64,000 nucleotides of DNA, taken from Escherichia coli (lineage in GTDB: Bacteria; Pseudomonadota; Gammaproteobacteria; Enterobacterales; Enterobacteriaceae). This document shows positions 12,025-12,670 of this stretch, piece after piece. The notes under the pieces were generated by a model. The model was not told the DNA's origin. It ran no database searches and saw only the letters and a list, made by a program, of their open reading frames with translations. Made by a program: the position numbers and the translations under genes. Within the stretch, counting starts at the first letter, position 1. Every line of letters starts with the position of its first letter. The DNA is taken from assembly GCF_009931435.1 (NCBI RefSeq), contig NZ_CP043414.1; one strand, written 5' to 3'.

Positions 12025-12670
12025 GAGAAATCCTTTTCAATGAATGACATTTCAAATAATAAAATATGAGTAATAGATAAGAAATAGCCACAGGCTGTGT
12101 CATGATTTAATGCCTGCTCTTGAAATTTTATTTAGCAATCCCAGAACATTCAACTTAATTAGTATTTCGAAACCTCAATGTAGACACATAAAAAACAAAT
12201 TATTCGATTACTTAGGCTATTTGTTGCATTAATACACATCCTCTAACAATAATCAGACAAAAAGCAATGTCAGCGTCAAATTGGGTAGCTGATTCATATT
12301 ACTGACCACTCCGGAAATTCATTCATCGTGAAAATATTAACATTTCAACCATGTTCCATTTAATCAACCCACTGAAAATCTGGAGGTTATCTACTGCGGT
12401 TTGTTGTTGACTGCCCCTGACAGGTTTACCAGGCGTTGACAGAAGATGAGGCTTGCAAGATGCTAAAAACAATGTGGTGTTACAAGCAATCCCATAAACC
12501 TCGTAACTTCACTTAAATGAGCGATGCCGTCCATATTTGGGTTGACTATAAAAACCCTTAATATTGAGGTTGATGATGATATTCATGATGGCATTGGAAA
12601 AATAGGACACCCATAAAATATCTATACAGCCTTTAAATTAAATCATTGAAATATCGCTGTTGCATAGTGC

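What the first reader, a model, noticed from the sequence alone, without database searches (positions are those of the whole stretch)
12025..12670. ydbL abuts ydbA across a 646-bp AT-rich spacer where K-12 carries the feaR-feaB-tynA-paa catabolic island
On the minus strand the order is ydbH-ynbE-ydbL, then a 646-bp non-coding AT-rich stretch, then ydbA. In K-12 (from memory) roughly 20 kb encoding feaR, feaB, tynA and the paa phenylacetate cluster lies between ydbL and ydbA. Their absence here implies either a deletion or the ancestral state before island acquisition. The spacer has no ORF of 60 codons or more in the six-frame track and contains long A/T runs typical of an H-NS-silenced promoter region, which would fit poor expression of the autotransporter under laboratory conditions.
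Basis: partly seen in the sequence, partly recalled or inferred. Interest (0 to 1): 0.4.

Follow-up and report, generated by a model that had tools for sequence, protein, structure and literature searches.

The report
Rare island-less ydbL–ydbA junction haplotype
This E. coli-type sequence lacks the phenylethylamine/phenylacetate catabolic block that K-12 carries between ydbL and ydbA, a well-known presence/absence polymorphism; the only unusual point is that the junction and the front of the ydbA adhesin gene are a rare, deeply divergent version found in 17 of 5,426 complete E. coli genomes.

Summary
ydbH-ynbE-ydbL (minus strand) is followed by a 646-bp non-coding stretch (12025-12670, 34.8% GC) and then the ATG of an intact 1830-aa YdbA/UpaH-family autotransporter. 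It is the most AT-rich stretch and the longest intergenic gap in the window. K-12 carries feaR-feaB-tynA-paaZ-paaA..K-paaXY (about 19 kb) at this site. The window holds no trace of that block.

The deletion-or-ancestral dichotomy is too simple. About 41% of 5,426 complete E. coli genomes lack paa, by several routes: a feaR'::paaY' scar deletion, IS1 deletions, and at least three scar-less ydbL-spacer-ydbA haplotypes with unrelated spacers (O157-type in 375 genomes, DG342-2-type in 142, window-type in 17).

In the window, similarity to K-12 stops at the ydbL stop codon and fades out inside ydbA. So 8215-12672 is one haplotype-specific block, made of the ydbA 5' part and its upstream region.

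ydbL-feaR-feaB-tynA-paaZ-paaA synteny is shared with Leclercia, Silvania, a Klebsiella-labelled MAG and, in part, Citrobacter and Yokenella. The catabolic block is therefore old at this site, not a K-12 acquisition.

H-NS silencing is plausible by analogy but untested. The variability of this locus is already published, so interest is low.

The parts
12025..12670 (.). 646-bp non-coding, AT-rich spacer between the ydbL stop and the ydbA start. It is haplotype-specific. It must contain the ydbA promoter and 5' UTR and the end of the ydbH-ynbE-ydbL transcript.
   Evidence: 34.8% GC, lowest in the window, no ORF above 49 aa. (present in 17/5426 E. coli genomes; no similarity to K-12 flanks, the O157 spacer, outgroups, plasmids or phages). 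(no terminator, Rfam family, repeats or stable fold).
6532..12024 (-). Intact ydbA (UpaH/BigA-family autotransporter), 1830 aa.
   Evidence: Pfam BigA_N (residues 152-232) and BigA_beta (1399-1482). NCBIfam auto_BigA covers residues 442-1830 to the end of the profile, but below its curated cut-off. Homologues are named BigA/UpaH.
8215..12024 (-). Haplotype-specific 5' part of ydbA (passenger domain). It is linked to the spacer.
   Evidence: Similarity to K-12 and O157 falls from 92% to 85% to 70% and is lost beyond 8214 except for 66-68% patches. It is present in exactly the same 17 genomes as the spacer. Protein identity to the K-12 N-terminal part is 36-42%, and 59% to O157 overall.
12031..12035 (-). 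Shine-Dalgarno-like AAGGA, 6 nt upstream of the ydbA ATG.
   Evidence: Read directly from the sequence.
12125..12153 (-). Candidate sigma-70-like site (TTGAAT-17-TAAAAT) upstream of ydbA. A consensus match only.
   Evidence: The number of such sites in the region is at chance level (4 found against 3.6 expected).
12246..12273 (-). Candidate sigma-70-like site (CTGACA-16-TATTGT) upstream of ydbA. A consensus match only.
   Evidence: chance level.
12671..12997 (-). ydbL (DUF1318). Its stop codon marks the right-hand end of similarity to K-12, O157 and the other Escherichia species.
13002..13187 (-). ynbE lipoprotein gene.
13184..15823 (-). ydbH.
5464..6324 (-). pdxI (ydbC), the conserved left-hand anchor gene. 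It sits directly next to ydbL in E. albertii, E. whittamii and C. amalonaticus.

Best explanation
The site is one allele of an old, multi-allelic structural polymorphism between the core genes ydbL and pdxI.

In this allele the fea/tynA/paa catabolic block is absent. A divergent version of the ydbA (UpaH-family) autotransporter, with its own 646-bp AT-rich upstream region, lies directly after ydbL. The block 8215-12672 behaves as one linked unit. It has no homologue in K-12-type chromosomes to recombine with. Homologous recombination has therefore homogenised the flanks only up to the edges of non-homology: the ydbL stop codon on one side and the conserved C-terminal barrel region of ydbA on the other.

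Functional consequences (inferred). This 64-kb stretch encodes no route from phenylethylamine or tyramine to phenylacetate and onward through the paa pathway. ydbA is intact here and is expressed from a promoter somewhere within the spacer. That promoter is probably kept low by H-NS-type silencing, as reported for the K-12 and UPEC counterparts.

Shown: the anatomy, the absence of the catabolic block, the rarity, the linkage of spacer and ydbA 5' part, and the synteny in other genera. Inferred: the age and origin of the haplotype, the promoter position, and H-NS silencing.
For: Absence and anatomy.

No scar: the spacer has no similarity to K-12's flanking intergenic DNA. Real deletions at this site leave feaR'(252 bp)::paaY'(329 bp) or an IS1.

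Linked block: the spacer and the ydbA 5' 3.8 kb occur in the same 17/5426 genomes. The one metagenome contig found has the same ydbH-ynbE-ydbL-spacer side.

Divergence peaks at the junction. Identity to K-12 is 93-94% in ydbL/ydbH and rises to 98-99.6% about 9 kb away. On the other side it is 95-98% and falls to 92, 85 and 70% inside ydbA.

Other unrelated spacers with the same break point: O157-type (413 bp, 375 genomes) and DG342-2-type (425 bp, 142 genomes).

The island-less arrangement is old. The O157-type ydbL + spacer + ydbA start is 98.8% identical in Escherichia sp. E1V33. E. whittamii keeps a 78%-identical copy of that spacer plus about 100 bp of the ydbA 5' end.

The catabolic block is also old at this site. 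The same order and orientation next to ydbL occur in Leclercia, Silvania and a Klebsiella-labelled MAG, and in part in Yokenella and three Citrobacter. Protein identities (FeaB 85-88%, PaaZ 82-89%, PaaA 93-98%) are in the range of the flanking LdhA (87-95%) and YdbH (67-84%).

Carriers are mosaic relative to the window, which indicates ongoing recombination.

H-NS by analogy: PMC3661553 Table 1 (paaY/ydbA promoter island, H-NS-bound according to Kahramanoglou and Oshima); PMC5012682 (UpaH listed as H-NS-repressed, citing Allsopp 2012).
Against: No donor or outgroup carrying the window-type spacer was found among 48 species loci, so its origin and age are unknown.

The elevated flank divergence could partly reflect the strain's general background. 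Carriers are 98-99% identical to the window across the flanks, while K-12 and O157 are 94-98% out to about 21 kb.

Beyond AT-richness there is no direct sign of H-NS binding or of a promoter. The scans are at chance level.

Only 64 kb was examined, so a paa cluster elsewhere in this genome cannot be excluded.
Confidence: 0.65

Rival explanations
1. A simple, fairly recent deletion of the 19-kb fea/tynA/paa block from a K-12-like ancestor, with the spacer being what remained.
For: Deletions of this block are frequent in E. coli. About 950 genomes keep only a feaR 3' remnant, and IS1-mediated losses occur. The ydbL-feaR adjacency seen in other genera implies that loss events happened somewhere.
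Against: Nothing remains of feaR, paaY or either K-12 intergenic region. The adjoining 3.8 kb of ydbA is also non-homologous. There are no direct repeats or IS at the junction.
Confidence: 0.1
2. The arrangement is the ancestral Escherichia state (ydbL next to ydbA, never interrupted). The K-12 lineage gained the catabolic block later.
For: Island-less ydbL-spacer-ydbA is shared across species: O157-type in Escherichia sp. E1V33 at 98.8%, and a remnant in E. whittamii. E. albertii and E. whittamii lack the block.
Against: ydbL-feaR-feaB-tynA-paaZ-paaA occurs in the same order and orientation in several other genera, with divergence similar to the flanking core genes. The block's position next to ydbL therefore predates Escherichia. 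The window-type spacer itself occurs in no outgroup. Four mutually unrelated spacers cannot all be ancestral.
Confidence: 0.15
3. The 646-bp spacer hides an unannotated functional element, such as a small protein, an sRNA, or a phase-variable or invertible promoter for the adhesin.
For: It is unusually long for an E. coli intergenic region. It has no indels and only 15 variable sites among 7 copies. Other E. coli autotransporters have switches; UpaE/ipuS is mentioned in PMC12525524.
Against: No Rfam match at E<=1. No inverted repeats that could flank an invertible segment. All 17 genomic copies are in one orientation and full length. Fold energy is no better than shuffled sequence. The largest ORF is 49 aa. 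The carriers are too similar for any covariation or dN/dS test.
Confidence: 0.05

Closest known systems
The paa/fea/tynA 'region of genomic heterogeneity' between ydbH-ynbE-ydbL and ynbC-ynbD-azoR in E. coli (Goldstone et al. 2016, PMC4951805)
   Same: Same locus and same phenomenon. The seventeen-gene feaRB-tynA-paaZABCDEFGHIJKXY locus is variably present between the same core genes, and ydbA is included in the variable region.
   Different: As far as I read it, that paper covers carriage frequencies and partial deletions in phylogroup A. It does not describe scar-less junction haplotypes or the window-type spacer.
O157:H7 / O55:H7-type island-less junction (ydbL, 413-bp spacer, ydbA)
   Same: The gene order is identical, the catabolic block is absent, the spacer is AT-rich (26.9% GC), and the break falls at the ydbL stop codon.
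   Different: The spacer sequence is unrelated. ydbL is only about 80% identical and YdbA 59% identical. It occurs in 375 genomes against 17, and it has counterparts in Escherichia sp. E1V33 and E. whittamii.
feaR'::paaY' scar deletion (for example bloodstream isolate GN04530 and WP3-W18-ESBL-07)
   Same: It also lacks tynA and paa and places ydbA/upaH close to ydbL.
   Different: It retains 252 bp of feaR, 329 bp of paaY and the K-12-type flanking intergenic DNA. That makes it a clear deletion, and the window has none of these.
UpaH / YdbA / BigA AIDA-I-type autotransporters (Allsopp et al. 2010 and 2012, cited in PMC12525524 and PMC5012682)
   Same: The same chromosomal gene family: BigA_N and BigA_beta domains, a C-terminal autotransporter region, a highly variable passenger domain, and reported H-NS repression.
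   Different: The window allele is 1830 aa. Its N-terminal 700 aa are at most 60% identical to any 90%-identity cluster returned. Function and regulation of this allele are untested.
H-NS-bound 'promoter islands' of K-12 (Panyukov & Ozoline 2013, PMC3661553), which include the paaY/ydbA intergenic region
   Same: An AT-rich region upstream of the same gene, associated with variable or foreign DNA.
   Different: There is no sequence similarity between the two upstream regions. Promoter-like site density in the window spacer is at chance level by the simple scan.

Membership tests
Deletion derivative of the K-12-type fea/tynA/paa locus | Remnants of island genes (feaR 3' end, paaY) or of K-12's ydbL-feaR and paaY-ydbA intergenic DNA at the junction. 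| tested here: not met
   blastn and tblastn of the whole K-12 block and its 18 proteins against the spacer and the whole window gave no hit better than chance. Sensitive pairwise blastn of the spacer against both K-12 intergenic regions gave a best E-value of 0.03, and that match was not colinear.
Deletion derivative of the K-12-type fea/tynA/paa locus | Direct repeats or an IS element at the break point. | tested here: not met
   No meaningful direct repeats and no IS in 11800-12900. Strains LP5-1 and NRZ96606, by contrast, have IS1 at this site.
O157-type island-less junction | A spacer homologous to the 413-bp O157 spacer, together with the 80%-divergent ydbL allele. | tested here: not met
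   No significant spacer similarity. The window's ydbL is 93% identical to K-12 and 79-80% to O157.
BigA/YdbA (UpaH) autotransporter family | BigA_N beta-barrel domain, BigA beta-sandwich domain and a C-terminal autotransporter region in one intact ORF with an N-terminal signal-like sequence. | tested here: met
   PF25784 (E=2.5e-26) and PF25783 (E=1.4e-24). NF033178 auto_BigA matches residues 442-1830 to profile position 1874/1875 at 972 bits, below its equivalog-style cut-off of 3400, so this is a family member and not BigA itself. The ORF is uninterrupted.
Classical mobile genomic island (integrase/tRNA type) as the nature of the missing block | An integrase, a tRNA or other attachment site, and flanking direct repeats. 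| tested here: not met
   The K-12 block contains only catabolic and regulatory genes and no integrase. There is no repeat at the empty site. The block is syntenic next to ydbL in other genera.
H-NS-silenced promoter region | AT-rich DNA well below the genome average. | tested here: met
   34.8% GC against 49.5% for the window, and the lowest 646-bp stretch in the window.
H-NS-silenced promoter region | H-NS occupancy in vivo and derepression in an hns mutant. | not testable with these tools
   Evidence is by analogy only. The K-12 paaY/ydbA region is H-NS-bound (PMC3661553), and UpaH is cited as H-NS-repressed (PMC5012682). The high-affinity motif TCGATAAATT has only two overlapping 2-mismatch matches in the spacer, which is unremarkable.

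The most novel reading that the evidence does not exclude
The ydbL|pdxI interval may be a cassette-exchange site. Whole 'promoter region + ydbA passenger' modules would persist as ancient, trans-specific alleles that move between Escherichia lineages by flanking homologous recombination. There are at least four mutually unalignable spacers. One is shared at 98.8% with a cryptic Escherichia species.

On this reading, loss or retention of the fea/tynA/paa block hitch-hikes with adhesin allele replacement. The window-type allele would be a previously undescribed third or fourth major UpaH/YdbA class with its own regulatory region.
Probability: 0.3. Interest if true: 0.4.

Novelty: already known. 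Interest (0 to 1): 0.15.

Why it matters
It matters little beyond bookkeeping.

The presence or absence of the fea/tynA/paa locus between ydbL and the ynb genes is a documented accessory-genome feature of E. coli. It predicts whether a strain can grow on phenylethylamine or phenylacetate.

The modest added value has three parts. First, absence arises by several independent routes, and the scar-less forms are old haplotypes rather than deletions. Second, the catabolic block is ancestral at this position at family level, so 'island' is a misnomer. Third, the UpaH/YdbA adhesin has a rare, intact, deeply divergent allele with its own upstream region. That allele could interest people typing autotransporter variants or studying how surface-protein diversity shapes linked gene content.

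Tried and rejected
- Direct repeats, IS elements or island remnants at the junction: none found.
- Similarity of the spacer to K-12's two flanking intergenic regions and to the O157 and DG342-2 spacers: none.
- Spacer in plasmids or phages, to test a mobile-element origin: no match.
- Spacer in 48 ydbL-bearing species loci from GTDB representative genomes: absent.
- One metagenome scan with a 28-mer from the spacer: a single contig in the same context.
- Rfam search at E<=1, intrinsic terminator scan, and RNA fold of the ydbL-distal 176 nt: nothing (z = 0.64).
- Sigma-70 promoter scan and H-NS high-affinity motif: chance level, so no promoter could be assigned.
- Exact source strain: none of the 17 carriers is identical to the window. 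The best is 98.8% over the ydbA 5' part, and carriers are mosaic relative to the window.
- Allsopp 2010 and 2012 (PMC2849410, PMC3486098): not held in the library. The H-NS/UpaH statement therefore rests on a secondary citation.

Full report
**1. The observation**

On the minus strand the window encodes ydbH (13184-15823), ynbE (13002-13187) and ydbL (12671-12997). A gap follows at 12025-12670. Then comes a 1830-aa ORF (6532-12024) whose ATG is at 12024-12022, preceded by AAGGA six bases upstream. RefSeq annotation of strain RMDEC465, which is identical over the gap, gives the same genes and leaves the gap unannotated.

- The gap is 646 bp and 34.8% GC. The window average is 49.5%.
- It is the lowest-GC 646-bp stretch in the window and the longest intergenic gap; the next is 365 bp.
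- No ORF within it exceeds 49 aa.
- The 'long A/T runs' are modest. The longest is A6.

In MG1655, ydbL is followed by feaR, feaB, tynA, paaZ, paaABCDEFGHIJK, paaX, paaY, a 21-aa ORF, and then ydbA interrupted by IS2 and IS30.

**2. No remnant of the catabolic block**

I compared the whole 19.2-kb K-12 segment, including both flanking intergenic regions, with the window by blastn. I compared its 18 proteins by tblastn. Nothing matched in the spacer or anywhere in the 64 kb.

**3. The junction is not a clean excision**

Similarity to K-12 on the right begins at 12673, which lies within the ydbL stop codon. On the left, identity runs at 95-98% through ynbD to pdxI. It then falls to 92%, 85% and 70% inside the 3' part of ydbA. 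Beyond 8214 it is lost, apart from two 66-68% patches.

The spacer has no significant similarity to K-12's ydbL-feaR intergenic region (171 bp) or its paaY-ydbA intergenic region (330 bp). So 8215-12672, about 4.46 kb, is a haplotype-specific block made of the 5' 3.8 kb of ydbA plus its upstream region.

The spacer and the ydbA 5' part were each searched separately. Each occurs in the same 17 of 5,426 complete E. coli genomes and in no others, even in the sensitive blastn mode. The spacer is absent from the plasmid and phage collections. One metagenome contig carries it, on the same ydbH-ynbE-ydbL side.

**4. How common is absence of the block, and by what routes**

paaZ-paaA is present in 3,178 of 5,426 genomes (3,131 nearly full length). 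tynA-feaB-feaR is nearly full length in 3,238. About 41% of genomes therefore lack paa. Several distinct configurations exist:

| Configuration | Junction | Genomes |
|---|---|---|
| Scar deletion (e.g. GN04530, WP3-W18-ESBL-07) | 252 bp of feaR fused to 329 bp of paaY | within the ~950 that keep only a feaR 3' remnant |
| IS1-associated deletions | IS1 at the site; these also remove ydbA and neighbouring genes | not counted |
| O157:H7/O55:H7 type | ydbL (80% identical to the window's), 413-bp spacer, ydbA | 375 |
| DG342-2 type | 425-bp spacer, 1949-aa YdbA | 142 |
| Window type | 646-bp spacer, 1830-aa YdbA | 17 |

The three scar-less spacers are mutually unalignable. In each, similarity breaks at the ydbL stop codon.

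Goldstone et al. [quoted passage not shown] The general phenomenon is therefore known.

**5. Polarity: which state is older**

I scanned one genome per species for YdbL and obtained 48 loci. I then mapped K-12 block proteins and window proteins onto them.

- Two Silvania, three Leclercia and a Klebsiella-labelled MAG carry feaR(-), feaB(+), tynA(-), paaZ(-), in K-12's order and orientation, starting within about 10 bp of ydbL. The Silvania and Leclercia loci also reach paaA(+); the MAG contig ends at paaZ.
- Three Citrobacter carry feaR-feaB-tynA there, and Yokenella carries feaR-feaB.
- Block protein identities to K-12 (FeaB 85-88%, PaaZ 82-89%, PaaA 93-98%) fall in the same range as the flanking LdhA (87-95%) and YdbH (67-84%). 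This fits vertical descent.

The association of the block with ydbL therefore predates Escherichia, and 'catabolic island' is a misnomer.

Island-less states are also old within Escherichia.

- E. albertii, E. whittamii and C. amalonaticus have ydbL followed directly by pdxI.
- Escherichia sp. E1V33 has the O157-type ydbL + spacer + ydbA start at 98.8% identity.
- E. whittamii retains a 78%-identical copy of the O157-type spacer plus about 100 bp of the ydbA 5' end, joined to the pdxI upstream region. That is a ydbA deletion remnant.

No outgroup carries the window-type spacer.

**6. Best explanation**

The locus is a long-lived, multi-allelic structural polymorphism between ydbL and pdxI. The window carries a rare allele. 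In it, a divergent ydbA with its own upstream region directly follows ydbL.

Supporting points:

- Divergence from K-12 is highest next to the junction: 93-94% in ydbL/ydbH, rising to 98-99.6% near ompN-uspF about 9 kb away. That pattern is expected when recombination homogenises flanks only up to the edge of non-homology.
- Carriers of the haplotype are mosaic relative to the window. R32_14_1F is 100% identical over 1-5000. 2020CK-00188 is about 100% identical over 4001-8000. Each drops to 78-98% elsewhere.

I put this at about 0.65. A recent simple deletion gets about 0.1, and a 'never had it' ancestral state about 0.15. The main weakness is that no donor or outgroup for the window-type block was found. 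In addition, carriers are generally closer to the window than K-12 is across about 20 kb, so part of the flank divergence may be strain background.

**7. The gene next to the spacer**

The 1830-aa protein has the BigA_N and BigA_beta Pfam domains. It matches NCBIfam auto_BigA from residue 442 to the C-terminus, below that model's cut-off. Database relatives are named BigA, UpaH or YdbA. It is therefore an intact member of the UpaH/YdbA autotransporter family, whereas K-12's copy is a pseudogene.

| Compared with | Protein identity |
|---|---|
| K-12 YdbA, N-terminal part | 36-42% |
| K-12 YdbA, C-terminal part | 62% |
| O157 | 59% |
| UPEC-type gene | 36-51% |
| Other carriers | 83-98% |

The best 90%-identity cluster returned for its first 700 aa is only 60% identical. 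Passenger-domain heterogeneity of UpaH is already documented (PMC12525524, citing Allsopp 2010 and 2012).

**8. Regulation**

The spacer must hold the ydbA promoter and the end of the ydbH-ynbE-ydbL transcript. I found nothing that locates either.

- No intrinsic terminator, Rfam family, inverted repeats or unusually stable fold.
- Promoter-like sites (for example 12153-12125 and 12273-12246 on the minus strand) occur at chance frequency.
- The H-NS high-affinity motif has only two overlapping 2-mismatch hits.

The H-NS idea is supported only by analogy and base composition. K-12's paaY/ydbA intergenic region is one of 78 'promoter islands' recorded as H-NS-bound (PMC3661553, Table 1). H-NS repression of UpaH is cited in PMC5012682. 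The primary papers were not available. Because the window spacer shares no sequence with those regions, silencing here is a reasonable inference and not a finding.

**9. Verdict**

The binary 'deletion or pre-acquisition ancestor' is replaced by 'one rare allele of an old multi-allelic junction, with the catabolic block being the older resident of the site at family level'.

The phenomenon is ordinary and already published. The only new detail is the rare window-type spacer and YdbA allele. Interest is low, at about 0.15.

Noticed in passing
window 8001-9000 (inside ydbA): A roughly 1-kb segment of the ydbA passenger region is only 78-79% identical to carriers 2020CK-00188 and MFDS1022581 but 98.4% identical to R32_14_1F. 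Neighbouring segments show the opposite pattern. This points to intragenic recombination or mosaicism within the rare allele. In 2020CK-00188 the gene is annotated as two ORFs.
   Followed up: partly
L011 (Escherichia sp. E1V33) 9700-11095 vs L004 (O157:H7 DEC4E): O157:H7's ydbL + 413-bp spacer + ydbA start is 98.8% identical to that of a non-coli Escherichia sp. The same ydbL is only about 80% identical to K-12's. This suggests a trans-specific or introgressed haplotype.
   Followed up: partly
L010 (E. whittamii) 10322-11020: E. whittamii keeps a 78%-identical copy of the O157-type spacer and about 100 bp of the ydbA 5' end, joined to the pdxI upstream region. ydbA was therefore deleted there rather than never present.
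   Followed up: partly
L062 (E. coli DG342-2) 8576-9000: A fourth scar-less ydbL-ydbA spacer (425 bp), unrelated to the K-12, O157 and window types. It is present in 142 complete genomes at 99% identity or more.
   Followed up: partly
L009 (E. coli SCPM-O-B-8794) 2462-11337: A divergent ydbL allele (about 81-84% identical to both the K-12 and O157 alleles) sits next to a complete feaR-feaB-tynA-paaZ-paaA block. The ydbL allele and island presence are therefore not strictly linked.
   Followed up: no
window 23864-26300: ttcA is followed directly by dbpA. The Rac prophage that K-12 carries beside ttcA is absent here, as it is in O157 DEC4E and the carrier genomes.
   Followed up: no
window 43997-46051 (+): A 684-aa ORF lies between tpx and tyrR. 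It has no Pfam match at E<=0.01 and is annotated 'hypothetical protein' in strain 2020CK-00188. From memory, tyrR and tpx are adjacent in K-12; I did not check this.
   Followed up: partly
window 29845-35417: ORF sizes here (302, 441, 481 and 510 aa) fit an intact abgR-abgA-abgB-abgT region. In carrier 2020CK-00188 this region is replaced by an AraC-family regulator, a HlyD-family protein and a frameshifted MFS efflux gene, with abgT and abgR remnants.
   Followed up: partly
L007 (Escherichia sp. MOD1-EC7003) 5362-7390: Downstream of a K-12-like ydbL, this species has neither feaR nor ydbA. Instead it has short duplicated helix-turn-helix/transposase-like ORF fragments and a 313-aa ORF with a signal-like N-terminus. 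That is yet another content of the same site.
   Followed up: no
window 21615-21979: The 365-bp nifJ-ompN intergenic region is the second AT-rich gap in the window, at 32.6% GC.
   Followed up: no
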